Origin: Isurus oxyrinchus
Taxonomy: Eukaryota
Assembly (NCBI GenBank): GCA_026770705.1
Contig: JANJGN010000034.1
Location: forward strand, 3,348,001-3,412,000
Length of the DNA stretch: 64,000 nucleotides
Reading direction: 5' to 3'
In this document: positions 1,986 through 57,779 of the stretch, one piece after another
Position numbering within the stretch: position 1 is the first letter of the stretch
How the letters are laid out: each line of letters opens with the position of its first letter
The notes under the pieces: generated by a model
Databases searched by the model: none
What the model was told of the DNA's origin: nothing
The model's input: only the letters and a program-made list of their open reading frames with translations
Position numbers and translations under genes: made by a program

Positions 1986-1999
1986 GGGACGAAGAATTA

Positions 2000-2770: not shown

Positions 2771-2799
2771 TATTGTTATTGTTATGTCAATACTGTCTG

Positions 2800-7760: not shown

Positions 7761-7784
7761 AATTCAAACACAGTACTGTTTTAC

Positions 7785-7811
7785 CTATCTCTTTTGCAAG
7801 TAGTGATTTCG
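7785..7811 (-). CDS. Micro-exon, 27 nt, AKSLLAKEI
   Basis: ttctgttatttcttttcag|CGAAATCACTACTTGCAAAAGAGATAG|gtaaaa. Confidence 0.88.
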   Translation of the reverse strand, partial: RNHYLQKR

Positions 7812-10800
7812 CTGAAAAGAAATAACAGAATTAGCAGAACAGTCCTCGATGTGGCCATTCTCCTGAATATAAAAGCAAGTCGAGCATTTTAGTATGTGAT
7901 AGAACCAAAAGGCGCAGGCAATTATCTGTGCTGAAAGTGAATCTGCTTCCACCTTGCCTCTCCTGAAACCAGTGGATTAATTAATGCTGCGATGTTAGAG
8001 GATAATAGCTGTGAAATTTATTGGGCTGTCACAGAACACTGAGTAGCATGGACAGCATAGTAAAATCGATAGGACTTATTGACTAGTCCACGTTGATATT
8101 GCTCACGTGGAATTAAAGCATGCATTATTTTTATTGTTGCAGGAAGCATTGCCTCTGTATAACACGTTTGGCAAGTGTATTTTTTAAAAGAATCAGAAGC
8201 ATAACAAGGCATCTCGCAGCTGATATTGAACCAAACTGCTCTCTGTCAGGTAATGGAAACTGTGATGTGGTTATCTTATTTACACAGATGCCCATTCAGT
8301 TGAATGAATTGGTGTACAGTAAACACGTAACTAATCAATGACATTGAAGTGTTCTCACATACAGCAAGCAACTAAGTCAAAGACAATACCAACATTCTTG
8401 ATTATTTTTCATTTCCTACTGTCGAAATAGAGTGCTATCATCGATGAATTTGGAAGCAAAGAGAAAGAAAAAAAGGTCGAAATTTAGAAAAAAAATGATT
8501 CTGTGTTGTTCAGAATACTTACAATCATTGAATGAATAGAGAATTGTTTTCTAAGACCAGCGAGATCTTTGAACACAAGAACATAAGGCATTGAAGCAGG
8601 ACGAGACCTGTCGTCCAATCGAGCCTACACTTCCGTGGTTAATGTGATGCCTGGTATGACTGTGGCCGGAACTCCACTTTGCATAAAGATTGGCTGCGTT
8701 ATATGTCGAGACATGGTTTCAAACAGTCTTAAATATTTAATAAATGAGCCTCCTTTTTTTGCTGTGGTAGAGAATTCGTATGACTGACTGCTCTTTGAGA
8801 GAAGAAAATTATCCTAATCTCTGGGTTAAAGAAGATTTGCCTTAATTTCAAACTGTGCCACTTATTTCCAATATTCTCCCATGAGGATAAACTTATTCTC
8901 TGTAGCCACCCCGTGAAAGACAGATAGGCAGTCGGATAGACATTCAGACAGGCAGACATATTGATGGGTATTTATATATTGAGGTAGTTCGTTAGACATA
9001 CAAATACATAGATTGATAGATAGACATTTAGCTAGACAGATAGATAGATAGATAGATAGATGGATATATAAATAGCTAGACTGACTGNNNNNNNNNNNNN
9101 NNNNNNNNNNNNNNNNNNNNNNNNNNNNNNNNNNNNNNNNNNNNNNNNNNNNNNNNNNNNNNNNNNNNNNNNNNNNNNNNNNNNNNNNNNNNNNNNNNNN
9201 NNNNNNNNNNNNNNNNNAGAAGGAAAGACGGACTGGTGAACAGACAGGCATATTGACAAAGAGAGGGTCAGGCAGAGGAATTTATCGAGGTATGAAGGTA
9301 TCTAGATAGGTGTTCAGGAGACTGGTATAACCTTTAGAAATCACCAAGCCAACAAAATACGTCATTTTCTGTAACAAAAACAGAATTAGCTGGAAAAACC
9401 CAGCAGGTCTGGCAGCATCGGCGGAGAAAAAAATAGTTTCACGTTTCAAGTCCTCATTACCCTTCAGCACAACTGATTGAATATAAGAAGAGGGGTGCAA
9501 TATAAATGGTTTAAGGAAGGGGGTGTGGGGCAGTGGTGTGAGAGAAGCGGCGTGGCGGTGTTGTAGTTGTAAGCAGAAGCAAGCAGTGATAAAAACAGAA
9601 AATCAAAAGTTGTCACCGACAAAGGAACAAACAAGTGTTGAAGGTGGTGACATTATCTAAACGAATGTGCTAATTAAGAATGGATGGCAGGGCACTCAAG
9701 GTACTGCTCTAGTGGAGGTGGGCTGGAAGGACTAGCCGGGCATACAAAATTTAAAAATAATGAAAATAGGTGGAAAAAGAACAATCTATCTAAATTATTG
9801 GAAAAAACAAAAAGGGAGAAGAAACGGAAAGGGGGTGGGGATGGAGGAGAGAGCTCAAGATCTAAAATTGTTGAATTCAATATTCAGTCAAGAAGGCTGT
9901 AAAGTGCCTAGTCAGAAGATGAGGTGCTGTTCCTCCATTTGGAGTTGGGCTCCCTCCTCCATCCCCACCCCCTTTCCGTTTCTTCCCCCTTCCTTTTGTT
10001 TTTTCCAATAATTTATATAGATTTTTGTTTTTCCTCCTATTTCCATTATTTTTAAATCTTGTTTGCCCTTCTAGTCAATCCAACCCACCCCCACAGGAGC
10101 TTTAACTTGAGTGCCCTGGCATCCATTCTCAATTAGCACATTCGTTTAGATAATATCACCACCTTCAACACTTCTTTTGTCCTTTGTCTGGGACATCTTT
10201 TGATTATCTGCTCCTATCACTGTTTGCTTGTCCCTACAACCACACCACCCCACCCCCATTTCTTTCCCCCATCCCCCCGCCCCCTACCTCCCGCCTTAAA
10301 CCAGCTTATATTTCACCCCTCTTCTAATATTCAATCAGTTGTGCTGAGGGGTGATGAGGACCCAAAAAGTCAACTCTTTTATTTTCCGCCGATGCTGCCA
10401 GACCTGCTGAGTTTTTCCACGTTATTCTTTTTTTGTTTTGGATTTCCAGCATCCACAGTATATTGTTTTTATATCTACATGATATTCTGTGTATATCTGC
10501 CCAGTAGTTATCAGACATTTTGATTGCAATGCAATCTGATATTGTTAGTGTATGGCATAAACGCCAGTGTCAGATGATTACTGTCTGTGAGGAAATATTT
10601 TAGCTGCGGTTTGATCTTCCTGGAAGTATTAATCTGTTCCTCACATTCATGTCTTGCCTTGGTGATGAACGTTATATGTAATTAATGGACAAGCACGTTA
10701 AAACTCAATGATCAAATGAATTAGCCGAAGAAAGGCTCTATGACACAAATCAATGAATCAAACTGTTTACCTGATGATTGAAGAAGTTCTTCAAGTTCTT

Positions 10801-13800
10801 TTCAGAACAATAAAGGGAAAATTAGTGCAAAATTAACAGAGTTCGACGCAAACATTAAAATGCAATTTCTCCATTGCACAGGAAATTAATTTAATTAATT
10901 TTCCTCGCGAATCACATCCTGCATGGTTGGATAATCATTGGCTCGGCTCCTAAATTAAAAATATATTGAATATCCATTATATGGAAGGACTGCGTAAAGA
11001 AATACATTAACTGCCACTTATCAGTGCTTGCTTTACATGGCATAGCCTGCTTCTGCTGGGCAGGTTTATAGAAGACAAATATCTAATGTGTGGGCAAGAG
11101 CAGAGAGCGAGATTAGATGTGGTAAATAGGAAATCACAGAACACAGGAGGTTGGAGAAGTCGGGGAATGACGAGCATAAGCGCGTAATGGCAGCAGGGCC
11201 ACAAGGAAGCAATGAGGGGGAAGGATATCTAGGGAGAAATTGGTTATTCAGGATATAATTCTTACACATTATATTGGTGTCTGATTAGTTGGTCAATGAT
11301 ATGGCTGAGAACGGATAGTAGAGACCAGGAGTGGAATCTTCAGAATCCCAGAGGTCCGTGAACAATAGTTCAGTAAACTGTGCTCTATTACGGAAACCAA
11401 ACATAACACATATAGCATTTGGCCAGAATTAGGCAGACGAATGGGCTTATGTTGTCATTAGAAATGAGGTAAAATGAACAACATCACATCCATCACCGTT
11501 AGGCATGCTGCCCAATATTAAGACATTAGACTTCAGATGAACTGACTAACTGAACTAACTATGGGAACAGGCGTCAAAATTGCATCCAGTAAGTTAGCGT
11601 CTCCATGGGGATTGCCCATTTCAGAATCTAAATTTATGATAACATTTCCGAATTTGCTTTGCTCATCAGCGCAGCATGGCTGCTATCAACTGGAAAGGCT
11701 CTTGGGAATTCTGCCCAAAATCAAGTTCGATTAAATCAATAATTTGAAGCACCCTGGAGTTTTGAGTAACGGGTGCCTACAACAAAGCACATTTTGCATG
11801 AATTCCCTCGATGTAACTACTCCTTAAGAGGTAGTAACTTGATCACATTCATATGCATGCGCTTAAAATTTCAAACTTTTTAGATGCGGAAATTTTAGGA
11901 TGGTCAGTCATCAACCTGACTGCTTATTTTCCAATGAGTGTCACCCATTATCACTCAGCCCTCAAGTTTCTGAGTTTGCACAGCTGTCACCTCCTCTGCT
12001 ATTTGGTGTAATCGTGGATACAAAATTCATTTCAAATAAAGCTCATGTGTTTGACTTCATGATTTCCAAATATTTAATTCCCATCATCAGAGATTTAGAA
12101 CCTTCCATTGACTAACGTCATGTGCAACTAAGTAGAAATTATTCATTGTTTTTATGATTCATTGTATTGCTCAGAAAGCATTAATGATTCCAAAATTGGG
12201 CAGGTTGAAAGAAATAATTAGAATTTTTAGTCTTTTGCATGACAGTGAGGACCTCAGAGCGTTTTGCAGCTGTTCAAGTACATTTCATGTGACCTAACAG
12301 TTATGCTGCATGAAAAAAATAAATGACGACAGATTTGGCCACGCAAGAAGAAACTTGCACAAACAGTACTTTGATAGCGAAATCATAAACTGTTTGTGTT
12401 GCTGTTCTCCTTTCAATTCGTTGCCCTCCCCAGCAATCGGGGCACAGCCTGGCAGGCTGTCCTGCCATCTGCAGGTTGCGAGGCCCCCAACGGATGGTTC
12501 ACTACCCGAGACCCTCATAGATTCAGCATAGAGGGTGCCTCAAAATGTAATCCCCAGCAATAAAAGGTTAAGGTATTTCCAGGAATCCGAGACCACCTGT
12601 ATTTTCTGCGGCCTCCAGGACTCCACGTCCCAGGTTTACAATTGTTTACGAGGTTATCATTTTTATCATCATTTGTAGGCTACCCTTCAGTTGTTGGACC
12701 GAGTGCCGCCCCATAGGCTGCCGATGTTTGTCTTCCTGGTATGAAGCTGCATGGGAAGGTCACATGACCTCCTGGCGGGTCTGCTCCTGCCCCTGATCAG
12801 GGTGGCCGATATCAGGTACCAGGTTGCAGCCAATGAAGCCATTGGTTGTTCCAGGTTATCTGCTCCTATTCTGAATGCATTCAGACCTGGGTATTTTTTC
12901 TTAGTAACACTTGTGGAACATTCCACAACCAGTGGTTGCCATCGGGACTGCCTTGGATTCCCACTACCGGGGTGCACTATAATTTAATTTGCTAAGTTTC
13001 CTTACAAGATTTATCTTTATTCTTTCATTGCCCATTTAATTAGTTAATCAGTTTATATTTTCATTTTGAATTCAAAAAGAGTCATGCAGTCTGTTTTGTG
13101 ATTTTGATTAAATGGAATTCTATTGGCCAAGGTTTTATGGATATTTCAATGCTTCTTTCAAATAGTGTCAGCTAATGTTTGAAATCCAACTGAGAAGGCA
13201 GATGTGGCATCGGTTTAACACCTCATCCCATAGACAGTGTGTCCGTCATTCCAGCACGTTCTCAGTACTGTACTTGTTTAAGAGCAGCAATTGTTTGTTA
13301 CCTTTTTTACGCTCAACCAGAAGTGGGAATGGGACCAATAACCTTGTGAGTTACCGAGAAAATGATAACAACTGACAGACGGATGACATGTTACATATTG
13401 CAACATTTTAAATAGTAGTGCTTGATTCTGTTTTCTTAACTGAAAAATATGCATTCACACAATGATATGCAGTCATCTATCTGCTAGTAACTACATTCTA
13501 ACAAAATGAAGCATTTTTTGTGCTCAATGCAAACTTTGCATCCTGTATTTAACTGTTGTGACTAATAAAATAACTGGTGTTTGAAAATCCATTTCTATAT
13601 AGTATGCAATTTCTCTATGGGGGAATTAGCTCGGGTGATTTCACGAATAAAAATAAACAATGATGACATGAAAACTTGATCATAAGTTTTTCAGTGATAA
13701 CTCGCCAAAATTGAATATGCCATATTATTTAAAACAAAAGCAGAAGCAGAAATATCTGGAAAAACTCAGCAGGTCTGGCAGCATCGGCGGTAAAAAGCGC

Positions 13801-16800
13801 AGTTGGCGATTCGAGTCCTCATGACCCTTCAAACAGAACTAAGTAAAAATAGGAAATGGGTGATATATGAGCTGGTTTCGGGGGGGGGGGCGGGGGGTTG
13901 GGGGGGTTGGGTTGGGTTTGTTAGGACAAGCAGTCAGTGATAGGTGGAGATAAGCAAAATATGTCACAGACAAAAGAACAAAGAGATGTTGAATGTGGTG
14001 GTATTATCTAAAGGAATGTGCTCATTAAGAGTAGAGAGCAGGACAGGTAAGGTACAGATAGCTCTAGTGGGGGTTGGGTGAAATAATACATAAAGGGCAT
14101 AAAAGGTAGCGATAAACAATGGGTGGAATTACTTTTAAAGTAATGGATATAGGCGGGAAAAGAAAAATCTATATACATTATTGGAAGAAACAAAAAGGAG
14201 GGGGAAGAAACGGAAAGAGGTTGGGGATGGAAGTTAGACTTCAAGATCTAAAATTGTTGAAACCAATATTCAGTGTGGAAGACTGTAAAGTACCTAATCG
14301 GAAGATGAGGTGCTGTTCCTCCAGTTTGCTTTGAGCTTCAGTGGAACAATGCAGCAAGCCAAGGACAGACAAGTGGGCATGAGAGCAGGATGGAGTGTTG
14401 AAATGCCAAGGGACAGGGAAGTCTGGGTAATGTCTGCGGACAGACTGACTGTGTTCTTCAAAGCTGTCACACAGTCTGTGCTTGGTCCCTGCAATGTAGA
14501 GGAAAGCCCATGTTATTTGGCGCTGACCCCTAAACTATGTTAATAGTGTGTGAACTATTTACCTAAAAGCTCAATTTATATATGAATCAATTAATGTATA
14601 GTGCATTGAGGATCAGTGTTTTTATAATGTGAGAACGGAGAAGGCAAGACATTTGCCATTTTTCATTATAAAAAGCCTTCGTTCTGTAAACAGCAAAGAC
14701 AGAAATGTAAAGCAGGCATATGGGTGAGAGGAACAATTGTTTGAGGTTTCAAACAAAAGCGATGAAAATACTATATATATATATTTATATAGCAAGGGAT
14801 GTCAATGCCTACTTGGAACTACTGCAAGGGATTTGATTCAAAATTGAGCAACCTATGCTGCATTTGTTCGTAGTCTTGGTCAGTTCACTTCGATATTATG
14901 GCCCTTACTTCTCCATTAATCAGTTGGCCTATATTTTCTTTTCATTTGGGCCGGGTCTGATTACTTATCAATCCTGCCTTGGATTCGTTTCCAAATAATG
15001 CAGAATTTGTTATGCGAGGATTTCCAATCGATAAGTGATTTCATTTGTGTTAGGAGAATCCGGAACCAGTTGCATACTCTCTCTCTCTTTTCTCTCGCTG
15101 TTTCTATCCATCCACCTGTCTCTCTTACTTTCACTTCATTAAACAACTTTTGAGTGGCGAAATACATATCAAGAACATGATATCCTCATCATTAATTAAT
15201 GATCTTACATGTAAAGGAATCAGCCAATTGATTGAAGAAAGATTTGTATTCAGCTAAGCCTCATTAGTCCTTCATTTGTTACTACCTACTTTTCCAAATG
15301 TAGGCTTAATTTTCTGCAACAGTGCCAATGTTACCGACTTTTGAATGACTGGCATATAGTTGTCGGATTTATCATCATAGTAAACATTTAAAAACGGTGT
15401 ATCATTTCCAACGTACCAGTCATTTGAAATCACCTTCAAAACTGTGGCAAATTCAATGAATGCCCAGAAACATCCAGAATTTTGATCCTGCATTCTCTCA
15501 GCCAACCATAGACGTGTCCCAACCAAATCAGACAACGTTTCTTTTGCGGGAACTGGAAACCATTTAACTGTATCGCATGTATTGACTTTATCTTATACAA
15601 TAATACTTCCTATTCCAGATTGGCTGGTCTGTTGGAATTATCCTCTTCTCCAATCAACGTGCATGCAATGTAACTTGAATACCTTTCCCAAGTTGATTTG
15701 CGTTTAAGTCATTAATAATCTCCTGTCTTACGTTCACTCACTTTTTGCTGGTGTTATTAGTTCTGCTGCTGTTCGTAGCTAATCGTACCAAGCCGATCTA
15801 CTGTCCTAGATATCACACTCGTCTGAGCTGCATCATCCTTACAACTGCCCTGGAACTTTCCAGCAAAAGCTTCCTGACGTCCGTTATAGACAAAGAAATG
15901 CCCTCCCCTCTCCCCGCTGCCCTCCACTTTGTCTTCTGTAAGAGATCTCTGTCGCTTTTCAACATTGAGAAAATTGCCTAAATAGTTCCATTTTATTTTT
16001 TTGGATGTTGATTGCGGATTTTTGGAAGGTTTTCTTTATCTGTTCCAATATCAAGCACATTTTCGTTTGCCTGTTTAAGATATGCTCCGGTTATTTCGAA
16101 TGCTATTCTGCTTCTTATTTGTACTGTCATTTTGGGATGTCTCTGGAAATTACTTTAAACCGCTCAGCGTCGTGATATTATATTTGAGATAATTCATTTT
16201 CTTTCTAGCTCGGTGTCCCTTTTGTATCTTGGTTTCCCGAGGTTTGAGGTTTTAAACTGATGAGAAAGTTTGCACCACATTACGGAACAATCTCATCTTT
16301 AAAATCTTCGAATGCAATATTTGATCTATATCTTCCAAAATTATGATTCGAGTCGAACTGATCCTCCTTATCAAGGCCAAATGCTAAATTAGAAGATGCT
16401 GATGTATGAGGATCAACACTCTCTAATATTGCACTAGTTACTGTAAAATTTCTTTCGTTATCACTTTTTCGAATTTACGTGCTTTCAGGTGTCTCTCCAC
16501 TAAATTATATCAGCTATGCATTTGGTCATTTAGGAACACATCTAACGTTTTGCGTACCCACAATAATAAATAGGACAATGTCCAGTTCAAAAAAAAGCAA
16601 CGAGTTTCAACGGGTAGTTACCTAACTCGGAAAATTTGGTGACTGAGAGAGTTGTATTTTACAGAACATGCAGCGCCCCAGAAAGGAGCCCAAATACAGT
16701 AAAATCTCAGAGCTGAAATCAGGAAGCAGTATTTCACTAAGCATTTAGGGCATTTATTGGCGAATTTAAGGCTTTCGGTATTCTGTTTTCCAGAACTGGG

Positions 16801-37410: not shown

Positions 37411-37462
<52 letters not shown>

Positions 37463-43400: not shown

Positions 43401-46400
43401 GTCAACATTTCGAAACCACTTGTAAACTATTTAATGCTGAATGATCAGGCATATCCACTGTAAATTACCTTAAAAAATGAAATCACTGTTTTTGACCCTT
43501 GTCACAAATTCTGGTCTTGCTCCAGCAAAACTAAACTTTCCCTCGCAATATTTGCAGCATAACCAATGCAATTATCTAGCTTGCCGTCCTGTTTCATACA
43601 TGATTACATCCTTGAGAATTGTAGAGAGAAGAGGCATGTCATAGCACATTGTTGTGCGCTCATCATGAAACTTCGCAAAAAAAAAAGTACATTGTATTAG
43701 GAGAGACTGCTGATGTATTTGCAAGTGGACTCTGACTGTCAGAAGCATTGCCATGGAGAATAAACTAATTGATTTTGAATGCCAGTTAAATGCCAGGCAT
43801 TGCTTGAAATTTAAACTAGGCAGCTTGAACGTCATTCTTCAAGGTATTGCCTTAAGGAATGATTCAGTTAATGAATGTCACATATTTTCTATTGCTGAAA
43901 CAGGTGCAATAAATAACAGCAGAATTGGGGCCTGGCTGTAGATGTGCATAACTCATTGAATGTGGAAGGAGAGGTGAGAGAGAAGTTCATAATGCAGAAA
44001 ACACCCTGTGCTTTATTAATAGGGGCATAGAGCACAAGAGCAGGGAATTTATTCTGAGTTGATATGAGGAACCAGATTGACCTTGGCTGGAATATAGAGT
44101 ACAGTTCTGAGTGCTGCACTCTATGAAGAACGCAAACACATTGGACACAGGTCAAAAGAGTTTTAAAATAATTAGAATAGTTCCAGTGATGAGAAACTTC
44201 AGCTATGAAGATGGATCGATAGATTAGGACTGTATTGTTTGGAGAGCAGAGGGTACGTGGAGGTTTAATAGAGTTGTTGAAAATCATGAAGGCAGCTCAA
44301 TAGAGTAGATTGGCAGAAAATGTTCCCATTCGTAAAATTACTGAGAACGAGTTACCACATGTTTAAAGTGATTTGCAAATGAAGAAAATGTGATGTGCAA
44401 AATATTTTTTTCGCACAGCGTTTGATTCCAGATTGGAATGGAATGCCTAGAAGGATTTTAGTGGCAGTTGCTATGGAGGCATTCTAGACGGAATTGGACA
44501 ATTATCTGAATATAAACAAAGTGCAAAGACACGGGAAAAAGCAGGAAAATGGCTCTAATTCATAATGCTCACTCGAAGATCCTGTTGAGGCACGATGGGC
44601 CAAATGCCCTGCTTCTATGTCGCAACATTCTATCTGTCTGTGAATACATCATTGGAGGAGAACAGTGTTTGACATGTGAGGAAGTTTCAGCAAGCAGGAC
44701 TAATCAAGTGGACCACTCAAACCACCTAGCCAATGTGTGACTGGTGAAAATAACCCGTTCTGCGCTATATTATGACGTGATTCCTGAACTAGTAAGGTCC
44801 TTGCATGGCAACAGTAAATTCGGATGTATAAATCTTTGCACTGTAGCCCAAGATTTCCCTTCCTGAGGCCTCCTGACTGCTTATTAGACCTGCGGCAATA
44901 ACTGAGAATCTGTTTGATTTGGACATCTCCTGTCTTTCGTTCTGTTGCATGTACTTAATCGATCATTGCTAGAAAGATTCTGATCCCTTTTCATACATGA
45001 AGTTGCAGTTTGCAATGGAATAGAAAGATGGCCATCCGAAGAAAACACCTGAGTGAATACATTTGTCTCAGGCTTTTCGAGTTTGTCTTGCAATTTCCAC
45101 TGGTCTTCACAGAACTGAAGTTTCCAACATAGCATATAGTCATCAATACTTATGATAACACCCAGGACCAATTTTCACCATTGGGAATCACTTTATTCTA
45201 ATTCATGGCTGAATAATAAAAGGCTGTAGTACCAAATCCGTCCAGCTGTTCTCCTGCCGTTTGACGATCGTTTCACAGCTCTCCAGACGCGTGGAGGAAG
45301 AATATTTCCACAAAATCACATGATGTCTTCACTTACCCAAGTCGTTAATTAGTTTCTCGAGTTCTGCAAATGTAAGAACTGAATGTTGGCGGAGAGAAGG
45401 TCAGCACAGAATGGAAAATTCACATCCATTCTTCGCTTTTACATGTAGTCACGTTAGAAGGATGCATCAAAGGTGTGACACATGAATCCACCGTTATTGT
45501 ATGGCGACTGCCAATTAATCAATTGAAATATGATTCTGATCCGTTTCTGTTGCAGATTCTAAACGAAGTTGAATTTATTTCAAATGCATTCAATTGCTAT
45601 TAATAGATTGTGCTGTGGCACAGAACCAGTCTAACCAGTTGTCAATGGAAACCACAGGTATGCATGGTTCTGCATTGCAACAACTACTAACTTCACTCCT
45701 GTTTACGTCAGTTAAATCTCCTTGTCCTTACCCTGATGGTCCTGTTTCCGTCTTTTATTGTCTACACTTCATATTCACACTCCAATTTCATTGATTGATG
45801 GCAGATTTTGTGATGGTTCTTTTGTAAGAAGGAAAACGGGCATATTTCTAGTCAGCCTAACCGAGGTACTTTACAGAAAATAGTTATGAGATTGCGCCAC
45901 CAACAGATGATTCTTGAGCATTTTAAAACAATACTGGACATGTGATGTTGTCGCCATAATAAAGTGTCAAAACCGTTTTTGTAGATGCTGCAACTCTCCC
46001 ATCCGAGACCTTCCAGCATGATCGTTGGTGCCAGGCCATGACAGGAAACAAAATAGAGCCATTGGATGTTGTACTCGGTTATCATTTGAAATCGTGGAAA
46101 TTAACGTGGATGCATATTTGTGACGAATATTGGGGTGGTGAAATACATGTTTTGTAACAATTGAAAGTAGGCTATTAACTCATTCGCTTTTCACACGTGT
46201 CAAACGATTGTCCACTTTCTTGCCTTCAGTATGACTCCAGCAGTCCTTGTTTTTTTTTCTTTAATATGACATAGGCATCACAGGTAAGGCCAGCATTCGT
46301 TGCCCTTCCATAAATGCCCTTGAACCGAATGGTTTGCTAGGCCATTTGAGAGAGCAGTTACAATCAAACAAATTGCTCTGGGTTTGGAAACATATGTAAG

Positions 46401-49400
46401 CCAAAACGGACAAGGAAGAGAGATTTCACTCCTCAAACTATATTAGTGAGCCAGTTGTTTTAATTTTCTTCTTCTATAATAATCGATAATAGCGTCATGG
46501 TCACCAGTGATAGTACTTATGTTACAGGTTTATTAATTGAATTTAAATTCCACCAACGGTGATAATGGGAAACATTTCCACAAGGTATGAGCATAGAGGT
46601 ATGGAATGCTACTCCCGTAATATTACCACTGCACAAGCATCATCTCCAACTGTTGATGTCAGCAAAGTGGAGAAGGAAACAAACAAATAACAAAAAATAC
46701 CCTAAAATGACCTAGTCGATAATGCAGTAAGTCCCCTCACATGGAGATATTACTGTTACCTTGCATGTTTACACCTTCGCATTGCCCTATAAGGCAAAGG
46801 AAAAAGTTAAGTATGCATATAAGCAAACGGAATTTACTGCATGCATTGCGATATAACCTATACCGTTGTTTATTGTTTAAAAAATAAATTTAGCTCTCAC
46901 AACATCATTCATCTGGCACTATCAGTTCAGTTTTATACCCTGCAGCCTCATATACTTATTAAATCCCCAGAGACATCCTGAACTAATTGCCTTGCTTTAC
47001 GCTTCCACTTTCTGACAGCTCTCTGCGTAATGTGGGCTCGCCAAGATTTCTTATTCAATTCCTAAAATACGGAACAACTAGAAAAACACACAAACTGTGG
47101 ATGCTGGAAACCTGAAACAAAAACATAAATGGCTGGAAAAACTGAGGAAGCCTGACAGGATCTGTGGAGGGGGAGACAGAATTAATGATTCGAGTCCGTA
47201 TGACTCTTCATCAAGACTAAAGAAAAAATAACTGATGCGAAATATATGCTTTTAGAGGGGGATGGGACAGGTGGAGCTGTATAGATGGCCTTTGATAGGG
47301 GGAAGCAAAGAAGAGATTGCCAAAGGTGCCATAGACAAAATGACAAGGAGGTGTTGCTGGTGGTGATATTAATTGAAGGATGTGGTAATGGTGACATTAA
47401 AGGTGGAAAGCAGACTTTCAAGTGACAGATGGCCATAGTGGAGGTGGGCAAGTGGAAGGGACAGAAATAGGCCAAAAGCTCGAGATAAAACAATGGATGG
47501 AAATACATTTAAAATAATAATGGAAATAGGTCAGAAAAGAAAAATGTATTAAAAAAATATATAAATATTTTTTTAAAAAAGAGGAATGGAACGAGGTGCC
47601 GGTGAAGATGAGAGTTCATGATGTGCAGTTGGTGAACACAAGGTCTAATGTAATTTTCTTCTCCCAACAATTTCTATTATTATTTTTAATGTTTTTCCAT
47701 CCATTGTTTTATCTCTGCAATTTAGCATATTTCAATTCGTCGTTGGCCTTTTGTTGATGACATCTTTGAAATCTCTCCTTTGCCTCCACCTATCACTGGC
47801 CCTCTATGCAGCTCCACCAGTCCAATTTCCCTCTAAAAATTATATTTTACCCCATTTATATTTCTCATTAGTTCTGACGAAGAGTCATGCATTCTTCCTC
47901 TCCTCAGATGCTGTCAGGCCTGGAGAGCTTTTCCAAGCATTTTTGTTTCTGTTTTTGATTCAGAGCAACTAGTTGTCTCTATGCAAACATTCATGATTTT
48001 CAGCACCATGATTATAACCATTCGTTATTTTTCTCTTCTCACACTGCTAGGTGCAAAAAGAAAATGAGCTAAAGAGATACTTGTCATCGATTGAAAGATG
48101 AATTTTATTGAGGCATAGTTTTTACATCTATCACAAAAATGTGCTGCTTTCTTCATTGTGTTTTATTTTTGCGCAGCTACTAATCTCAGTATTCTGACAT
48201 GAAGCTCTCAGAAAAAAAACCCTTCCTAGCCCGTGCAGAAATGTCAGGCTCAGCATTTAACTCAGCTGCTCAACTTTCGATTAAAATAATGATCTATTCA
48301 GTTTCACCGCATCTCAGGAAAAAATAAACTAAATGCTTGAATGTGCTCTTGATGTGTAAGAAACTGCATTCTCACAGAATTAAAGCTGGAATGGGGGATT
48401 CACATCGAGTGCCACGTCTTTATTTTTTTCCGCTGGCACAGGCATAATCAGCCACATAAAAGAATGATTCGCTTTTGAATCATAAATTTAATGATTCGAT
48501 TTTTCGACGACTGGTATATTGTATTTTAACCAAACGTCGCTGAATGCTTGCTGCTCTATATCAACTTCTACATTCTGCATGTATGAGAGTCGTTGAAGTT
48601 CAGGAATATGGGTGACTTTTGCAAGTGCACAAAAACCAAGGGCGGGAGCATGTTGTAGGATTTACAGGGAGATGGGAAATGGAAGGCAAGCCATAAATGT
48701 TCACAAATATTGGGAAAGAGTTGGAACGAATATCGGAAGAAAATTTTCTATTGTAGTTCTCCACTGAGAAACATGCATTGCATTAACAGACATTATCAGA
48801 ATTCTATAACCGATAGGATTTAGCACATGTACAGAGCACCAAATCTTCGTAAACATTCAAATATATATGATGCTTTGTATTTTTACTCACCTGAGTTAAA
48901 AGTCATCTTCAGCCTCTCCACCTCTGAAATGGATAATAAAATGCATTTCTGACGTGGAAATGCCAGTTAGTGTTAAACTGGTATTTTACATCACCCAATA
49001 TATTTTCAAAATTTAGTTTTGAAAGGATTGACCAAGAATCTGGGGCGGGAAGTGTGCAATCTGAACTACTGTGTTCCTGCATTAATTCCAAACCTGAGTT
49101 ATACATTTAGGAAAATGAAGGTTTAAAGTCAATTATTCTCACTATTATGCTTAACTTCAAGAGTTTCCGAATACGTTTTGGCAAATCAAGCAAATATTTC
49201 CAACTTTGAGCCTCTGCATAGTTTTTATCTGAACTGGAAGCCAGACAGTTCAGGCTGAAATGGGTTAACCAGTAGGATCCTAACTTCAGATGATCGGATA
49301 TGTGAGGGAAACAAATTTTGTTTCTGTTACTGCGCTATTATTGGCTTCACCTTGTTTCTTTGGGCATGACTGGTTGTGATTCGACATTTCTTGTGCTTGT

Positions 49401-51233
49401 TTCCAGTTCAGCTGGGAGCTGGAAAGACTCCAAAAAGGTACAGCAATAACTAGAGGAGGTGTGTCAAAAATTAACCGCATGTTTGTGTGGGAAAGAAGTA
49501 CTCGCTCCTTAAATTATTGTATGGGACATGAAACATAGAGCTTAGAGAGAGCGATGAGAAAAAAATGTCATGGTTTTATAGATAACATAGGGAACCTACT
49601 GTTTTTACCCTGAAAGCAGATAACGTCAAAAGGAGAGAGAAGAGAGTTATTCTAACTTGTAAAATGTTTGTGAGAGGATTATTTAATTAAAGTGGCTTCT
49701 AGTGGAGGGCCTGTAGGTGTTTGTGTATGTATGCGGGGTGGAGGGCTGGTCCGGGGGGGTGGGTAGCTGGGGGCAGCTTGTTTTACTGGGAGCATACGGC
49801 AAGAGGGTGGGGAGTATCCGTAGGGTGCGGTGGCCTCTTGCGTGGGTTACAAGTTGAGGTATAGAAAAAAAGAATATCCCAGGGAGATATGGAGCTAAAA
49901 TTTTTAAGTAACAACTTGTGATGCAGGAGTCAATAGTTGACCTGGTGCTTGCTGCGGATTCAGCCGTGGATCACAAATTCAAATTGGCAATAGACTAGGA
50001 AATAAATTAGAATTTCAAGAAGTGTGCTCATTTGAATAGTTCTGTCCAGGAGCCTGCACTGGCATGTGGACTGAGTAACCCTCATGTGTGCTGTAACATT
50101 CTATGATGTATTTATGGGCAGCTACAGATGAAGTTTTCGGGCATAAATTCTGACTGTTTGCCAATATTCGAACTCGTCCAAGCTTTTGAACTACACCAGT
50201 GGCATCTTCCGTCGACCATCTTGTATTTCACTTGTGTTAGATGTAAATATTTGAAGTTGAATTTTGGTTTAGGCTGACAAGTGTATTTTGGTGCTAAGTC
50301 ATCAATATTTCCTTACCCTGAGCCCGGTTCTCTACTCCATATGCCAGTGGAATGGATTAAGTAGGAGTATTTCACTTCCCACACCTTTATTCCGTTTTTG
50401 AGAGGAACAAGAGAAGTGTTAACTGTTTATTGAAATTGAGGTTAACCATGGACTAGCTGGCACTGAAGTGAATGTTAAATGTCTTGCTATCAGCTATATT
50501 GAATAGGATACGATTCAAAAAGTAAGACAAGATATGATAGGGATTCAAGCATAAGTAGAAAACATACGTTCAATTATAAACATATTTGTCCCTTAAAGGC
50601 AATGATTGGTGCTGCCTGTACTGCTGCCTGATTGGCCAGAGGAGCACAATAATGAGACTGTTGTCCTATCAATATTGCACTAGGTGAGGTCAAATGTTCG
50701 GCCCACCGCATTAAGTTTGAACATTCCTATTCATCGACACGACCCTTTTTCCAAAGAGCATTATTCCTTAGTATGGTTAATTTTGTTGACCATCAAAGCT
50801 GCAATATAGACATTGAACGAGTGGTACATTATGGTATAAGTGCTTTTTATTGATTTTAATGGCAGAATGCGTAGAGTTCTTTTTCCATACAATGAGGACC
50901 TTACAATCAGGAAAAAGAGGTGTAACAGTCAAAAACATTGAATTCATAAATAACAACACATAACGCTCAAATGACAACATTTGTCCTATAAGAAAAGGGC
51001 AATAGTTAACAGATTGGCATCTCCGATAAGTTACTTCAGTTATACAGGAAGAACAGAGAACCTGAGCCAGAAGAAATAATTAGATTAAACGTCCTCCCTT
51101 GATGCTATATCACCTGATAATTCTAATGCTCTAATTTCTCCTCAAGGTTAATTGCAGAATAACTTAAATACATCAATGGCAATTCGATATTTCAGAAGAA
51201 TTTTACCTATCTGCCTTTGAGCCAGCCTTTCAT
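7785..51233 (-). CDS. Partial multi-exon gene: array of phase-1 micro-exons encoding a coiled-coil-like segment (candidate butyrophilin/BG-like cytoplasmic tail); 5' and 3' ends not identified in the window
   Basis: 13 exons of 27,33,27,27,27,36,27,36,27,27,21,27,27 nt (369 nt), each with pyrimidine-tract AG and GT(A/G)A donor. Joined they read [123 protein letters not shown] with no stop. The 33-nt exon has stops in both other frames. Family assignment is inference only. Confidence 0.85.
8575..8905 (-). mobile_element. CR1 3' tail fragment
   Basis: aagaacataag terminus; ORF 8729-8959 contains HSLKLR...FFSQRAV..NSLPQ. Confidence 0.8.
8915..9260. repeat. (GATA/GACA)n microsatellite region spanning a 130-N assembly gap (9088-9217)
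   Basis: Direct inspection. Confidence 0.9.
9370..10470. mobile_element. Penelope-like element end as inverted repeat (arms about 9370-9858 and 9945-10470)
   Basis: Arms are reverse complements (e.g. cagcaggtctggcagcatcggcgga / tccgccgatgctgccagacctgctg). Spacer encodes [25 protein letters not shown] on minus (GIY-YIG C-terminus). Confidence 0.88.
10771..10797 (-). CDS. Micro-exon, 27 nt, ELEELLQSS
   Basis: ttttccctttattgttctgaaaag|AACTTGAAGAACTTCTTCAATCATCAG|gtaaac; 15/27 identical to exon 45337-45363. Confidence 0.75.
13195..13285 (-). mobile_element. tRNA-derived SINE fragment (Deu-SINE-like)
   Basis: ggtttaacacctcatcc...cagcacgttctcagtactgtac, recalled similarity to the elasmobranch Deu-SINE body; related pieces near 12230-12350, 27630-27790 and 33850-34000. 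Confidence 0.5.
13735..14510 (-). mobile_element. Penelope-like element 3' fragment with GIY-YIG endonuclease C-terminus
   Basis: Minus strand 14241-about 14503: [86 protein letters not shown]. Confidence 0.88.
14657..14683 (-). CDS. Candidate micro-exon, 27 nt, ERRLFIMKN, with GC donor
   Basis: catttctgtctttgctgtttacag|AACGAAGGCTTTTTATAATGAAAAATG|gcaaat; fills the otherwise empty 27-nt slot before ELEELLQSS. Confidence 0.55.
15000..16560 (-). mobile_element. Decayed CR1 ORF2 fragments
   Basis: [11 protein letters not shown]...DKSDNYMPV matches CR1 DWxxANVTPLFKKG..PGNYRPV. Confidence 0.65.
16622..16642 (-). CDS. Micro-exon, 21 nt (one heptad), VTKFSEL
   Basis: caactctctcag|TCACCAAATTTTCCGAGTTAG|gtaact. 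Confidence 0.65.
   Translation of the reverse strand, partial: SPNFPS
17300..20050 (+). mobile_element. Cluster of decayed CR1 RT and tail fragments (mostly +)
   Basis: ORF 17440-17646 [15 protein letters not shown]; tail motifs at 19700-20050. Confidence 0.7.
20606..20632 (-). CDS. Micro-exon, 27 nt, (G/C)EKPTKTVT
   Basis: ctccattttctgttaaag|GTGAAAAACCGACCAAGACCGTAACAG|gtaatg (AAG acceptor). Confidence 0.65.
20765..20875 (+). mobile_element. Miniature Penelope terminal-repeat remnant with hammerhead-like core
   Basis: ctgaagaagagtcaaatgcactcggaacgttaactccacagatgctgc..., homologous to the PLE ends at 10340-10440 and 47870-47960. Confidence 0.65.
21630..21750 (+). mobile_element. Penelope terminal-repeat remnant
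   Basis: tgaagagtcatacagactcaaaacattaacggtgttcctctctgcaggtgctgtcaga, same motif order as the other PLE ends. Confidence 0.6.
21956..21973 (-). CDS. Candidate micro-exon, 18 nt, VHQGLA
   Basis: cctgtttttcag|TTCACCAGGGCCTTGCAT|gtaatt; same length, VH start and terminal T as 41983-42000. Confidence 0.42.
22269..22295 (-). CDS. Micro-exon, 27 nt, KDKLDKFDK
   Basis: tttttgttatgatttag|AAGACAAGCTAGATAAGTTCGACAAAG|gtaaag. Confidence 0.78.
22680..23400 (+). repeat. G/T-rich strand-asymmetric degenerate repeat (ggtagg/gggtgg/gtcgg motifs), unclassified
   Basis: Strong G over C skew by inspection. Confidence 0.6.
23750..24470 (+). mobile_element. Decayed CR1 RT and 3' fragment
   Basis: ttatccaacgttggtgctgatgata (FADD-like) followed by tail motifs. 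Confidence 0.55.
24508..24543 (-). CDS. Micro-exon, 36 nt, [12 protein letters not shown]
   Basis: ttgtttccttcttcag|AAATAGAAGAACTGAAGAAGCAAATTAAAGAAGCAA|gtgaga. Confidence 0.87.
24675..25035 (+). mobile_element. tRNA-derived SINE (Meta-domain-like family) with internal duplication
   Basis: Homologous (reverse) to 26350-26730 and 46250-46650; 3' end gccgatgcccacataccatgaaataa shared with the LINE ending near 53920. Confidence 0.6.
25380..26330 (+). mobile_element. Decayed CR1 ORF1 and endonuclease fragment
   Basis: Residual tggagtttgagcagctgctgga (LExQL) and ggtgtagagggacctg (GVxYRPP-like) segments. Confidence 0.5.
26350..26730 (-). mobile_element. tRNA-derived SINE (Meta-domain-like family), near full length
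   Basis: B-box-like ttcaaatcccacc on minus; central ggtctggagtcacatataggccagg...ttccttccctataggacattagtgaa; LINE-derived 3' tail with poly(A). Domain name is from recall. Confidence 0.75.
27115..27515 (-). pseudogene. RPS28: Processed pseudogene of 40S ribosomal protein S28 (eS28)
   Basis: Intronless. ATG at 27492, TAA at 27284-27286 (209 nt vs 210 expected). Reads [11 protein letters not shown]/frameshift/[55 protein letters not shown]. 5' pyrimidine tract CTTTTTCC ending at 27515; A-rich tail remnant at about 27115-27132. Confidence 0.95.
27800..30230 (+). mobile_element. Decayed CR1: 5' region, ORF1 (Cys-rich/leucine zipper plus esterase-like domain) and ORF2 endonuclease
   Basis: MAGQVMC.. 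near 28189; [29 protein letters not shown] (VHVGTNDI region); ttttgtacctgaat (LYLN) near 29343; gtgggtgactttaat (VGDFN) near 29642. Confidence 0.85.
29790..32880 (+). repeat. Locally duplicated composite of CR1 segment, antisense CR1 tail and (ATC/ATA)n tracts
   Basis: Homologous anchors at 29793/31046, 30601/31874/32198 and 30983/32624; ATC tracts at 30770-30830, 32040-32190 and 32370-32490. Confidence 0.8.
33081..33107 (-). CDS. Micro-exon, 27 nt, DQKHLEKTI
   Basis: ttcttgtttttcag|ACCAAAAGCACCTTGAAAAAACTATAG|gtaatt. Confidence 0.85.
   Translation of the reverse strand, partial: TKSTLKKL
35326..35361 (-). CDS. Micro-exon, 36 nt, [12 protein letters not shown]
   Basis: cagcatttctttcag|AGTTGAAAAGACTGAAAGATATTCTACATGGCATGG|gtaaga. 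Confidence 0.87.
36690..38600 (-). mobile_element. Decayed CR1 (3' tail at about 36690, RT region to about 38600) interrupted by a microsatellite
   Basis: acagtcatagagtc tail terminus; [16 protein letters not shown]; RT-like complement at 37520-37950. Confidence 0.65.
37412..37502. repeat. Compound (CA)n-(GA)n microsatellite
   Basis: (CA) run 37412-37460 then (GA) run 37462-37502. Confidence 0.98.
38690..40660 (+). mobile_element. CR1 ORF2 (RT to 3' tail), 5'-truncated
   Basis: ORF 39400-39852 [33 protein letters not shown]; ORF 40362-40568 [11 protein letters not shown]. Confidence 0.95.
41100..41650 (+). mobile_element. Decayed CR1 RT fragment
   Basis: aacaatgatttggac...tccacgtttgttgatggc (NDLD..STFVDG). 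Confidence 0.65.
41717..41743 (-). CDS. Micro-exon, 27 nt, (G/C)KSVIAKEI
   Basis: tctacgcttctctacag|GCAAATCGGTTATTGCAAAAGAAATAG|gtaaac; 20/27 identical to exon 7785-7811. Confidence 0.87.
   Translation of the reverse strand, partial: ANRLLQKK
41983..42000 (-). CDS. Candidate micro-exon, 18 nt, VHSEEI
   Basis: tatttattttgtttcag|TGCATTCTGAAGAAATTT|gtaaga; symmetric phase 1, weak exonic side of donor. Confidence 0.5.
42620..43330 (-). mobile_element. Decayed CR1 ORF1-end/endonuclease fragment
   Basis: [23 protein letters not shown] resembles CR1 EN ExxWVEI..GVxYRPP. Confidence 0.5.
43930..44645 (+). mobile_element. CR1 3' fragment
   Basis: ctttattaataggggcatagagcacaagagcaggg ([11 protein letters not shown]); tttttttcgcacagcg; tail with ttctatgt. 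Confidence 0.88.
45337..45363 (-). CDS. Micro-exon, 27 nt, ELEKLINDL
   Basis: ttcttacatttgcag|AACTCGAGAAACTAATTAACGACTTGG|gtaagt. Confidence 0.85.
46250..46650 (-). mobile_element. tRNA-derived SINE (same family as 26350-26730)
   Basis: ggccagcattcgttgccc...atattagtgagccag...aattgaatttaaattccacca. Confidence 0.75.
46760..46786 (-). CDS. Micro-exon, 27 nt, GQCEGVNMQ
   Basis: ctttttcctttgccttatag|GGCAATGCGAAGGTGTAAACATGCAAG|gtaaca. Confidence 0.78.
47080..47965. mobile_element. Penelope-like terminal repeat as inverted repeat (arms about 47080-47545 and 47650-47965)
   Basis: aaaacaatggatggaaa / tttccatccattgtttt and ggtggagctgtatagatggcc / ggccctctatgcagctccacc. Confidence 0.82.
48891..48923 (-). 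CDS. Micro-exon, 33 nt, [11 protein letters not shown]
   Basis: ttttattatccatttcag|AGGTGGAGAGGCTGAAGATGACTTTTAACTCAG|gtgagt; open only in phase 1. Confidence 0.88.
49500..50110 (+). mobile_element. CR1 3' fragment with inserted G-rich tract
   Basis: Tail motifs ending tgtgctgtaacattctatgat. Confidence 0.6.
51207..51233 (-). CDS. Micro-exon, 27 nt, (D)ERLAQRQI
   Basis: ttccatttgttgctgttcacacag|ATGAAAGGCTGGCTCAAAGGCAGATAG|gtaaaa. Confidence 0.8.
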   Translation of the reverse strand: MKGWLKGR

Positions 51234-51949
51234 CTGTGTGAACAGCAACAAATGGAAAACATTGAAACCAGAGACACTATATTCGAAAACACAGGGAATG
51301 ACAGCAGACTAAAGGCAACAAGAGCTATATAGCCTGCTCAACTAATCAAATCAAACAAAAAACTGATTATCAAAAATAATTTGAAACAGCCTCACATTCT
51401 TTTACTATGGTGCTTTAATGCCTACATCAGCCATAAAAAACATTTTGCAGGTGCGTGTACACGTGTACATGCAGCGCAGTGCATGGGGAGCTGATGCTGC
51501 ACTATATTTCAGCGGAGGTCCCAAGTGGCTGAAGACATGTTTGCATATCGTGGGACACTAAAATTGGTAATTTTCATGGGGTCAGTTTCGGAAAAAGGCA
51601 AAGACGTCGGAGTTGGGATGGATGCAGTGTCCAATGAAAAAATGCTGGGCTTGGATTTAGCACGGGTGACTATCAGAAACAACTGCTCATTCGCCCCTGC
51701 ACAACACCAAATTCTATTCCCCATCGAGCAACATTATTAACTTCTCAGTCCGTTCAGTGACTGGAAACCAGACTTAACTTGGTTATCTGTTATTCCACAA
51801 TATATTGAGATGAAATGGTTCCTCTGATGCACACATAATTTTTACGCCTAATATCAGAGCAATTATTATCAATAACTATGACTTATAATGAAAAAAAAAA
51901 TAAATGCCCTCATGATTCGGAAATTCCATTGAGTTGGACTTATCAATGC

Positions 51950-53925: not shown

Positions 53926-54779
53926 ACGCTTACCAAAAACTGATTCATGTTGCCTGTGATGTTAAAGGGCAGGTGTCACCACAAACTGGAGTGTTAGTGT
54001 CACCAGATGTGGTTGCCCTTAACGATTCTTTCATCAAAACAATATTTGGCTGTTTGCTCAGCGTTGATTCATTAAGGTGTAATATGCTGGACCTGTTTCG
54101 ATCAGAGTAGTTTTTTTTTAAATTTCAACTGTCTTCCTAATATAAATTTATTTAACTTAAACGTTAATAATTGACAGTTTCGATACATATACGTACAACA
54201 GTAAAATATACCATTTGGATACAATTCGGAGAGAGAGAAACCTTTACAAGATTGCTTTCATTCAAATTGACACCTACAACCTGCATCCAATCGCCCTGCA
54301 TTCTAGCTCCGGCATATAAATGCCCAATGCTATGGAAAATAATTTAACCAACATATAAATCACCGAATCCGGGATTTTTTTCATAAATAAAGCATTATAT
54401 ATGTCGACAACATTTTTCTGTTAATGCCAGAGTAAGGTGTTAGACTTCAGTAGTACTGCTAAGTGACCACATCGCCCAGCTGCCCTCGTTCCTTCTTAAT
54501 ATGCTGTATATTTGAAACCAGGGGAACTGAATGGAGAATGGGGAACGCAACAAATGCTTAATGAAGCATTAAGCATAATAGGCGATTTTATGCTATACAG
54601 AAATTTAAACCTAAATTGAAGTTAGCCCAACTTTTCTACCAACCATTTTGATTCACTGGCCCATTGTAAACATTGCACTTGTAACAGCATGCTGAATTAT
54701 TTCAGTTTATGTTGATGTATTATGAGACCAATGCGAGAATGCTTCCTTCAAATACCCAATCAAGAATTGTTAAAAAAAA

Positions 54780-57775: not shown

Positions 57776-57779
57776 GAAT

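What the first reader, a model, noticed from the sequence alone, without database searches (positions are those of the whole stretch)
7785..51233. Hidden gene made of 13-16 tiny symmetric micro-exons spread over 43 kb, encoding a long coiled-coil-like segment
Seen: every exon is on the minus strand, 18-36 nt, a multiple of 3 and flanked by splice signals. All join in phase 1 without a stop (123 aa core, 144 aa with the three weaker exons), rich in E/K/R/L/I with amphipathic spacing. Under 1% of the window is coding and the ORF track misses it entirely. Known: butyrophilin, MOG and chicken BG genes encode cytoplasmic heptads with small phase-1 exons, typically 21 nt. Inference: this is a related but differently built, expanded tail (27/33/36-nt units), possibly of a cartilaginous-fish immune receptor, or an unrelated novel coiled-coil protein. 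No Ig, TM or B30.2 exon was found inside the window.
Basis: partly seen in the sequence, partly recalled or inferred. Interest (0 to 1): 0.9.

Follow-up and report, generated by a model that had tools for sequence, protein, structure and literature searches.

The report
Giant shark micro-exon coiled-coil B30.2 gene
Thirteen tiny exons in this window belong to an array of more than 80 that likely forms one 730-kb gene of a cartilaginous fish, predicted to encode a very long coiled-coil rod tipped with a B30.2 binding domain, and four more likely genes of the same build lie beside it.

Summary
The micro-exons are real. Thirteen phase-1 exons (27, 33, 36 nt) lie at 7785-51233 on the minus strand, a slice of a far larger array. 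Over 614 kb, 81 strong 27/36-nt candidates lie on the minus strand and 1 on the plus; 0 of 81 have a stop in the phase-1 frame (57 and 43 in the others). Duplicated exons show purifying selection. A 36+27-nt pair encodes three heptads. The array runs from +82 kb to at least -300 kb and, by samples, to a PRY-SPRY exon at -639 kb: likely one ~730-kb gene of ~150 exons. No Ig exon was found at its 5' end, so it is not a butyrophilin. Four more such arrays lie at 3.5-7.5 Mb of the contig. The three B30.2 domains tested group apart with misnamed chondrichthyan RefSeq proteins, one a 1,697-aa elephant-shark rod. Most likely product: a membrane-anchored cytoplasmic rod; a secreted or shed rod is the main rival. 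No RNA support was obtained; 248 kb of the gene was not read. The scan noted like arrays before on other DNA (two notes). Ten paper searches found no description.

The parts
51207..51233 (-). 27-nt phase-1 micro-exon; first of the window's 13 (the array starts further 5', at about +82 kb; see full report)
   Evidence: family score 23.7
48891..48923 (-). 33-nt micro-exon (short form of the 36-nt type)
   Evidence: score 29.6
46760..46786 (-). 27-nt micro-exon
   Evidence: score 21.9
45337..45363 (-). 27-nt micro-exon
   Evidence: score 26.2
41717..41743 (-). 27-nt micro-exon; 74% identical to the exon at 7811
35326..35361 (-). 36-nt micro-exon
   Evidence: score 19.9
33754..33780 (-). 27-nt micro-exon
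   Evidence: score 18.1
33081..33107 (-). 27-nt micro-exon
   Evidence: score 27.2
24508..24543 (-). 36-nt micro-exon
   Evidence: score 34.8
22269..22295 (-). 27-nt micro-exon
   Evidence: score 24.0
20606..20632 (-). 27-nt micro-exon
   Evidence: score 18.3
10771..10797 (-). 27-nt micro-exon; 78% identical to an exon of the upstream paralogue
7785..7811 (-). 27-nt micro-exon; last of the window's 13 (the array goes on 3' of the window)
   Evidence: score 24.4
41983..42000 (-). weak 18-nt candidate, not established
   Evidence: score 9.4
22219..22236 (-). weak 18-nt candidate, not established
   Evidence: score 11.7
20927..20941 (-). weak 15-nt candidate, not established
   Evidence: score 15.9
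1..64000 (-). whole window lies inside the inferred gene (about G000:C34:3441000 down to 2708632); all but the micro-exons is intron. Parts outside the window: candidate 5' exons ending at +92839 and +90617, first strong micro-exon at +82467, array to at least -298 kb, terminal PRY-SPRY exon at C34:2708632-2709152

Best explanation
The 13 exons belong to an array of phase-1, mostly 27- and 36-nt exons that runs for at least 380 kb through and beyond the window and is likely one ~730-kb gene, predicted to encode a ~1,500-residue coiled-coil rod that ends in a PRY-SPRY (B30.2) domain and is likely held in a membrane by one N-terminal hydrophobic segment, with rod and B30.2 likely in the cytoplasm. 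Shown: the exons, their frame, purifying selection on them, the heptad pattern (hydrophobic residues at positions 1, 4 and 8 of the 12-residue exon and position 3 of the 9-residue exon; 12+9 = three heptads), and no detectable Ig exon at the 5' end. Inferred: that all exons join the B30.2 exon in one transcript; that chains pair as a parallel coiled coil about 220 nm long (1,500 x 0.15 nm); that the rod works as a spacer or tether that holds the B30.2 binding head far from the membrane, like a butyrophilin or chicken BG tail without the ectodomain; and that exon duplication and skipping set its length without shifting frame. Odds: real coding gene 0.93; one gene through to that B30.2 exon 0.8; this topology 0.5.
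For: Length spikes and strand bias: 86 and 52 candidates of 27 and 36 nt on the minus strand against 7 and 7 on the plus in 614 kb. Frame test with a model blind to frame: stops 0/81 in the phase-1 frame, 57 and 43 in the others; other lengths 11/30. Duplicated block: 10 exon pairs differ at 14/288 bases (4.9%) against 12.0% in flanks, p=1e-4, 7 silent and 6 replacement changes counted, rough dN/dS 0.26. Heptad power peaks at period 3.4-3.5; exon-order shuffles reach it 4/500 (this gene) and 0/500 (gene A). Minus-strand exons in 8 of 10 samples bridging to the B30.2 exon, and in the last 40 kb before it; two genome searches list no family SPRY between. Elephant-shark RefSeq XP_042192744.1 (1,697 aa) has an N-terminal hydrophobic segment followed by a basic cluster, a long coil with 8 matches to the 36-nt-exon profile (shuffles 0.16; 0/200 reach it) and a family B30.2. 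Gene A has a 153-nt symmetric exon with a hydrophobic segment and +6 basic tail 2.2 kb before its first micro-exon; none such in 614 kb of either strand. Three of eight gene A exons tested match the catshark RefSeq protein well and in order (6/9, 8/9, 6/9). RefSeq isoforms of relatives differ by internal blocks of 6 or 9 residues.
Against: No transcript of this gene was seen. 248 kb of the 732 kb were not read, so a hidden gene boundary with a non-SPRY last exon is possible. This gene's own 5' exons are only candidates: signal-like stretches arise by reading pyrimidine-rich intron (55 minus, 46 plus in 614 kb; 5 in the 44-kb gap, about chance). The test for gene A's exon was defined after seeing it, and it has no detectable paralogue; the elephant-shark N-terminus comes from an automatic model and found no match here. 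In gene C the basic exon follows a coil exon rather than a hydrophobic one. The basic clusters fit the furin consensus R-x-K/R-R (consensus recalled), which suits an extracellular rod. One junction of the 83-exon join gives a stop (-204683). The heptad signal is weaker in this gene (0.38) than in gene A (0.80), and several window exons are linker-like. Five of eight gene A exons tested match the catshark model poorly or out of order.
Confidence: 0.5

Rival explanations
1. Same gene and rod, opposite topology: a signal peptide or type II anchor sends the coil and B30.2 outside the cell, and a furin-type cut at the basic cluster releases a ~220-nm extracellular rod with a recognition head, as a structural fibre or pattern-recognition molecule.
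For: R-x-[K/R]-R motifs near the N-terminus of gene A, gene C and the elephant-shark protein; the 90617-90692 candidate reads like a signal peptide; cysteine at a core position in 7 of 47 36-nt exons; the skate model starts with a hydrophobic stretch. Secreted B30.2 proteins (snake vespryns) exist (recalled; search listing only).
Against: Charge is higher on the C-terminal side of the hydrophobic segment in gene A and in the elephant-shark protein, which by the positive-inside rule (established knowledge) puts the C-terminus in the cytoplasm. In butyrophilins the B30.2 domain follows the TM and cytoplasmic heptads (PMC8813856, PMC4046983, passages). The skate N-terminus may be intron read-through.
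Confidence: 0.27
2. A soluble cytoplasmic rod without a membrane anchor, like chicken zipper protein, acting on actin-myosin or on vesicle traffic.
For: The annotated catshark, Narcine and short Callorhinchus models begin without a hydrophobic segment; the hydrophobic candidates of this gene are no more frequent than chance; a soluble BG tail displaces tropomyosin (PMC5938342, passages).
Against: Short models are probably 5'-truncated, since the genes here nearest to the catshark and skate models are giant arrays; gene A and the elephant-shark protein both have an N-terminal hydrophobic segment with a basic tail.
Confidence: 0.13
3. A true butyrophilin/BG-like receptor whose Ig exons were missed (very divergent, or absent from the assembly).
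For: Same exon grammar: phase-1 micro-exons, a last 27-nt exon, one B30.2 exon; 21-nt heptad exons in genes C and D; two SPRY exons ranking next to the family lie on C21, which carries MHC class II alpha and BTN-type IgV exons. About 70 kb upstream of genes A and C was not read.
Against: No Ig family in 88 of 88 minus-strand frames of 65 aa or more in the 44-kb gap, no open IgV motif in 614 kb, no N in the gap, 0 of 23 BTN-type IgV matches on C34, and no Ig motif flagged in the family proteins listed.
Confidence: 0.05
4. The window's exons belong to a shorter gene, or to several, that end before the B30.2 exon at -639 kb, giving a coil-only protein.
For: 248 kb unread; 2 of 10 bridging samples had no exon call; genome searches score only the best candidates.
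Against: No break seen in 382 kb of contiguous sequence here nor in the last 118 kb of gene C; same exon types throughout; the estimated length (~1,700 aa) equals that of the elephant-shark model.
Confidence: 0.05

Closest known systems
Chicken BG genes (butyrophilin family)
   Same: Long coiled coil built from many tiny exons with split first codons; exon number varies between genes (PMC5938342, PMC4046983, passages).
   Different: BG has signal, IgV and TM exons, 27-37 exons of mostly 21 nt in the alleles described, and no B30.2 in the domain list given (PMC8813856). Here about 150 exons of 27/36 nt (two-exon, three-heptad unit), no Ig found, a B30.2 end, and a ~730-kb span.
Butyrophilins (BTN/BTNL)
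   Same: Heptad region followed by a terminal B30.2 domain; fold matches BTN3A1 and TRIM7 B30.2 (skate relative).
   Different: BTNs have IgV+IgC, TM and only a short heptad region (PMC8813856). The family's B30.2 groups apart; BTN-type IgV exons of this genome are mostly on C21, none on C34.
TRIM proteins (RefSeq names TRIM39-, TRIM58-, TRIM69-, A33-like)
   Same: Coiled coil plus PRY-SPRY; relatives carry these automatic names.
   Different: No RING or B-box found in the 5' gap or by motif in the family proteins listed; the coil is an order of magnitude longer and micro-exon coded.
Chicken zipper protein; enterophilins
   Same: Soluble coiled coils acting on actin-myosin or sorting nexin 1 (PMC13749957, table row and reference only). 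That enterophilins are long leucine zippers with a B30.2 end is recalled, not from a call.
   Different: Far shorter (recalled), other lineages; no sequence comparison was made.
Callorhinchus milii XP_042192744.1 ('nuclear-pore anchor-like', automatic name)
   Same: 1,697 aa: N-terminal hydrophobic segment, basic cluster, long coil with matches to the 36-nt-exon profile, family B30.2.
   Different: Not shown to be the orthologue (groups weakly with gene C); an uncharacterised prediction, not a described family.

Membership tests
Butyrophilin (BTN/BTNL) | Extracellular IgV (and IgC) domains | tested here: not met
   0 Ig families in 88 frames of the 44-kb 5' gap; no open IgV motif in 614 kb; 0 of 23 BTN-type IgV matches on C34
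Butyrophilin (BTN/BTNL) | Single transmembrane segment before the heptads | tested here: inconclusive
   Two hydrophobic candidates at 92.8 and 90.6 kb, about chance frequency; a better one in gene A
Butyrophilin (BTN/BTNL) | Heptad region coded by small phase-1 exons | tested here: met
   but about 150 exons of 27/36 nt rather than a few
Butyrophilin (BTN/BTNL) | C-terminal B30.2 (PRY-SPRY) | tested here: met
   Intact exon, PF00622 E 4.6e-15; linkage to the window's exons inferred from the array
Butyrophilin (BTN/BTNL) | B30.2 nested among BTN B30.2 domains | tested here: not met
   11 family rows form one side of a branch, 100/100, apart from 12 Ig and 16 RING rows; midpoint root only, 16 of 42 RING proteins used, 57 unclassed proteins left out
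Chicken BG | Signal + IgV + TM exons | tested here: not met
   no Ig found
Chicken BG | Tail of 21-nt one-heptad exons | tested here: not met
   51 of 83 exons are 27 nt, 27 are 36 nt, 2 are 21 nt; 21-nt runs occur in genes C and D
Chicken BG | Disulphide-linked dimer with coiled-coil tail | not testable with these tools
TRIM | RING and B-box domains | tested here: not met
   no such Pfam match in the 5' gap; none by motif in the family proteins listed
TRIM | Coiled coil plus PRY-SPRY | tested here: met
Vespryn/ohanin-type secreted B30.2 | Cleaved signal peptide and secretion | tested here: inconclusive
   signal-like candidate at 90617-90692 not above background; no sequence comparison made; family features recalled
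Unnamed chondrichthyan coil-B30.2 family (this report) | Family-type B30.2 and 27/36-nt phase-1 exon array | tested here: met

The most novel reading that the evidence does not exclude
Cartilaginous fishes have their own ancient family, shared by sharks, rays and chimaeras, of giant rods (about 200 nm) tipped with a B30.2 head and displayed or shed outside the cell, coded by a ~5-Mb cluster of genes with hundreds of frame-neutral micro-exons, so that exon duplication and skipping tune rod length in three-heptad steps: a variable-length molecular ruler, fibre or recognition system hidden from annotation.
Probability: 0.25. Interest if true: 0.9.

Novelty: new variant of a known kind. Interest (0 to 1): 0.75.

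Why it matters
If right, about 4.8 Mb of one shark contig that looks like repeat-filled intergenic DNA is five giant genes, each likely holding on the order of 100 or more micro-exons, whose relatives annotation truncates and misnames (TRIM39-like, A33-like, nuclear-pore anchor-like). It would be an extreme case of micro-exon splicing across kilobase introns, a clean example of a coiled coil grown by a two-exon, three-heptad module, and a further deep branch of the B30.2 superfamily beside TRIMs and butyrophilins, shared by sharks, rays and chimaeras. It bears on where the heptad tails of BG and butyrophilin genes came from and gives exact exons for RT-PCR.

Tried and rejected
RNA: no RNA holder was listed for gene A's last exon. 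Four of the five listed runs (possibly DNA) laid on this gene's B30.2 exon covered the flanking repeats and left the exon uncovered in 4 of 4; this says nothing on expression. No annotated orthologue of this gene of 304-2000 aa was found; the alignment search returned only 2 family proteins at E<=1e-40. The V-set family search scored 150 of 3319 candidates and could not test this region; a BTN-type IgV query was used as well. DNA and protein searches with candidate 5' exons found no paralogue. Rejected as artefacts: the multi-TM-looking frame at -1232..-855 (intron read into the exon at -1186); a signal-like stretch at C34:4767308, since gene C's array runs on upstream; a TM-like 123-nt extension at +219029, since sister introns read the same way, most with stops; the 27-nt call at 61416 inside a LINE. 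The skate model's hydrophobic start was first taken as a signal peptide, then downgraded for the same reason. Scarcity of N-glycosylation sequons (3 against about 15 expected) was judged uninformative because heptad position biases could cause it. Short-word tblastn of relatives against the loci gave noise. Counts made with the family model outside the window are partly circular (it was trained there); the generic-model tests and the window count are not. In the duplication test 4 of 14 calls had no partner under the rule used and were left out. Paper searches found no description of this family; the library lacks most subscription papers, and no supplements were read. A likeness to human TSBP1/C6orf10 is recalled only; the listing gave nothing on its exon structure.

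Full report
Setting. The window is G000:C34:3348001-3412000 in a 4.98-Gb genome. It is 40% GC, holds LINE-like fragments and no long gene frame. The nearest named protein to a neighbouring exon is from the catshark Scyliorhinus canicula at 72% identity, and all named family members are chondrichthyan, so the host is inferred to be a shark. Coordinates are window coordinates (negative = below the window's first base) unless a contig is named.

1. The observation. Thirteen minus-strand exons with AG/GT ends lie between 51233 and 7785: ten of 27 nt, one of 33, two of 36, 375 nt in all. Each is open in the phase-1 frame and closed in at least one other; joined they have no stop and are rich in K, E and L. 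A generic splice model finds 10 open 27/33/36-nt candidates on the minus strand, 1 on the plus, and at most 4 in 60 simulated sequences. A family model trained only on exons outside the window on the minus strand and 0 on the plus; one call lies in a LINE and was dropped. The 15-18-nt extras are weak.

2. The array is far larger. In 614 kb (-300 to +314 kb) the minus strand gives 86 candidates of 27 nt and 52 of 36 nt against about 10 for other lengths and 7 and 7 on the plus strand. With strict generic scores and no frame filter, 81 minus-strand 27/36-nt candidates have 0 stops in the phase-1 frame and 57 and 43 in the other two; other lengths have 11 of 30; the plus strand has 1 candidate. 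A 34.5-kb tandem duplication inside the array gives a selection test: 10 exon pairs (of 14 calls; 4 had no partner) differ at 4.9% of 288 bases, flanks at 12.0% of 3,949 (p=1e-4); 7 changes are silent and 6 replace a residue, rough dN/dS 0.26. These exons are kept as protein-coding sequence.

3. Gene limits. A PRY-SPRY exon at +126116-126636 on the same strand ends the upstream gene A. The window's gene (B) therefore starts below it; its first strong micro-exon is at 82467-82432. From there 83 exons are called down to -298 kb (51 of 27 nt, 27 of 36 nt; plus-strand control 6 in 614 kb), with no SPRY match in that stretch. Eight of ten 6-kb samples further down hold the same exons (12 calls), and 7 more lead into an intact PRY-SPRY exon at C34:2708632-2709152, about -639 kb. 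Two genome searches list no family SPRY in between. Scaling over the unread 248 kb gives about 150 exons, about 1,500 residues of coil and about 730 kb. One gene is the simplest reading, not a shown one.

4. The 5' end. In the 44 kb between gene A's last exon and the first micro-exon, 88 of 88 minus-strand frames of 65 aa or more gave no Ig, RING or B-box family; the only match above a curated cut-off was a reverse transcriptase. A BTN-type IgV query gave 23 matches in the genome, most on C21, none on C34. Two candidate exons, ending at +92839 (strong donor) and at +90617 (90692-90617, weak donor), carry hydrophobic stretches and can be joined in frame with the array, but such stretches occur at about this rate by chance. 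Gene A is clearer: 2.2 kb before its first micro-exon lies a 153-nt symmetric phase-1 exon with a good acceptor, a 17-residue hydrophobic segment and a +6 basic tail, a combination absent from 614 kb of both strands, though the test was set after the fact. DNA further upstream of genes A and C was only partly read.

5. What the exons spell. In 47 exons of 36 nt, positions 1, 4 and 8 are hydrophobic in 96, 89 and 91% and position 11 is mostly small; in 82 exons of 27 nt position 3 is hydrophobic in 62%. A 12+9 pair is 21 residues, three heptads, with core positions 1, 4, 8, 11, 15, 18. Hydrophobic periodicity peaks at 3.4-3.5. Shuffling exon order lowers it (reached in 4 of 500 shuffles for gene B, 0 of 500 for gene A), so the genomic order keeps the register. 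Gene B has more 9-9 steps and linker-like exons than gene A, so its rod is probably broken by stutters or hinges. No hydrophobic 17-mer lies inside either join.

6. The family. Four more arrays with terminal B30.2 exons lie on C34 from 3.47 to 7.50 Mb; gene C shows no break over its last 118 kb; D and E rest on a few 5-10-kb samples. A search of 1.84 billion representatives returned chondrichthyan relatives. Most RefSeq models are short and named TRIM-like, but show only coil and SPRY; their isoforms differ by internal blocks of 6 or 9 residues, as exon skipping would give. Three late exons of gene A match the catshark model in order (6/9, 8/9, 6/9; the other five of eight tested match poorly or out of order), and one 36-nt exon of gene C matches the skate model at 9/12 (best of nine tested). 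The elephant-shark model XP_042192744.1 has 1,697 aa, an N-terminal hydrophobic segment followed by a basic cluster, 8 matches to the 36-nt-exon profile (shuffle mean 0.16; 5 in 36,471 aa of 128 other SPRY proteins) and a family B30.2. In a tree of 39 domains the 11 family rows (genes A, B, C and eight RefSeq models) lie on one side of a 100/100 branch, apart from 12 Ig-bearing and 16 RING-bearing rows (no outgroup). The skate protein folds as long helices plus a beta-sandwich (pLDDT 73) that matches TRIM7 and BTN3A1 B30.2 (best E 5.6e-15).

7. How it most likely works. Inferred: the exons splice into one mRNA; because all are symmetric, any can be gained, duplicated or skipped without frame shift, and the 63-nt pair also keeps the heptad register. 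The chains likely pair into a parallel rod of about 220 nm. [quoted passage not shown] The same basic clusters fit furin sites, so an extracellular, shed rod is a real rival (0.27); a soluble cytoplasmic rod is third (0.13). Ligand and tissue are unknown.

8. Known systems. BG genes have signal, IgV and TM exons and a heptad tail of mostly 21-nt exons, 27 to 37 in the alleles described (PMC5938342, passages; PMC4046983, passages). Butyrophilins have IgV, IgC, TM, a short heptad region and B30.2; TRIMs have RING and B-box (PMC8813856, passages). Gene B fails the Ig test and the RING test, so it is filed under neither, while it is built like a BG/BTN tail. For enterophilins I saw only a table row and a reference (PMC13749957); their architecture and that of vespryns is recalled. 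All other papers were seen as search listings only. Ten searches gave no description of this family. The scan's own notes held nothing for this genome and two notes on like arrays in other DNA, read after my conclusion was formed; they are not independent evidence.

9. Limits and verdict. Verdict: real coding micro-exons of a likely giant gene in a chondrichthyan coil-B30.2 family not found in the papers searched; new variant of a known kind; interest 0.75.

Noticed in passing
G000:C34:2.71-7.50 Mb: Five family B30.2 exons (2.71 and 3.47 Mb minus; 4.82, 6.40, 7.50 Mb plus), with micro-exons on the matching strand in most samples between them. Genes A and C are head to head around 4.0 Mb. The 1.57-Mb stretch before 6.40 Mb was sampled thinly and may hold more than one gene.
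   Followed up: partly
G000:C34:4070498-4179481 and 5100001-5105000: Runs of 21-nt one-heptad exons, as in chicken BG, in the 5' parts of genes C and D.
   Followed up: partly
G000:C21:89722230 and 91348269: Two further SPRY exons rank next to the C34 family and lie on the contig with MHC class II alpha (79.7-80.8 Mb), a large SPRY cluster and BTN-type IgV exons; possibly the ancestral site. Not fetched, not in the tree.
   Followed up: no
window coordinates -185000 to -116000 (L023-L030): 34.5-kb tandem duplication, about 86% identical, carrying 10 or more exons.
   Followed up: yes
G000:C34:3951203-3951355 and 4047066-4047095; window coordinate 92839 (L004): Early exons of genes A, C and this gene all end in two arginines before a phase-1 donor; in A and C the end fits R-x-R-R.
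   Followed up: partly
window coordinate -204683 (L032): A 21-nt call makes a stop at its junction with the next called exon: a false call, a missed exon or a poison exon.
   Followed up: no
   Followed up: partly
ESM Atlas clusters: Chordate clusters of 1,277-1,802-aa proteins with SPRY in all members and automatic names (one up to isoform X51) score 0.79-0.92 against family proteins; their taxa could not be resolved.
   Followed up: no
window 61390-64000, 1050-1614, 39397-39852: LINE-type reverse transcriptase and endonuclease-like fragments in introns (frames; the label is recalled from motifs).
   Followed up: no
window 7520-7756 and 9088-9217: A two-copy 120-bp repeat just 3' of the last window exon and a 130-N stretch beside an ATAG repeat.
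   Followed up: no
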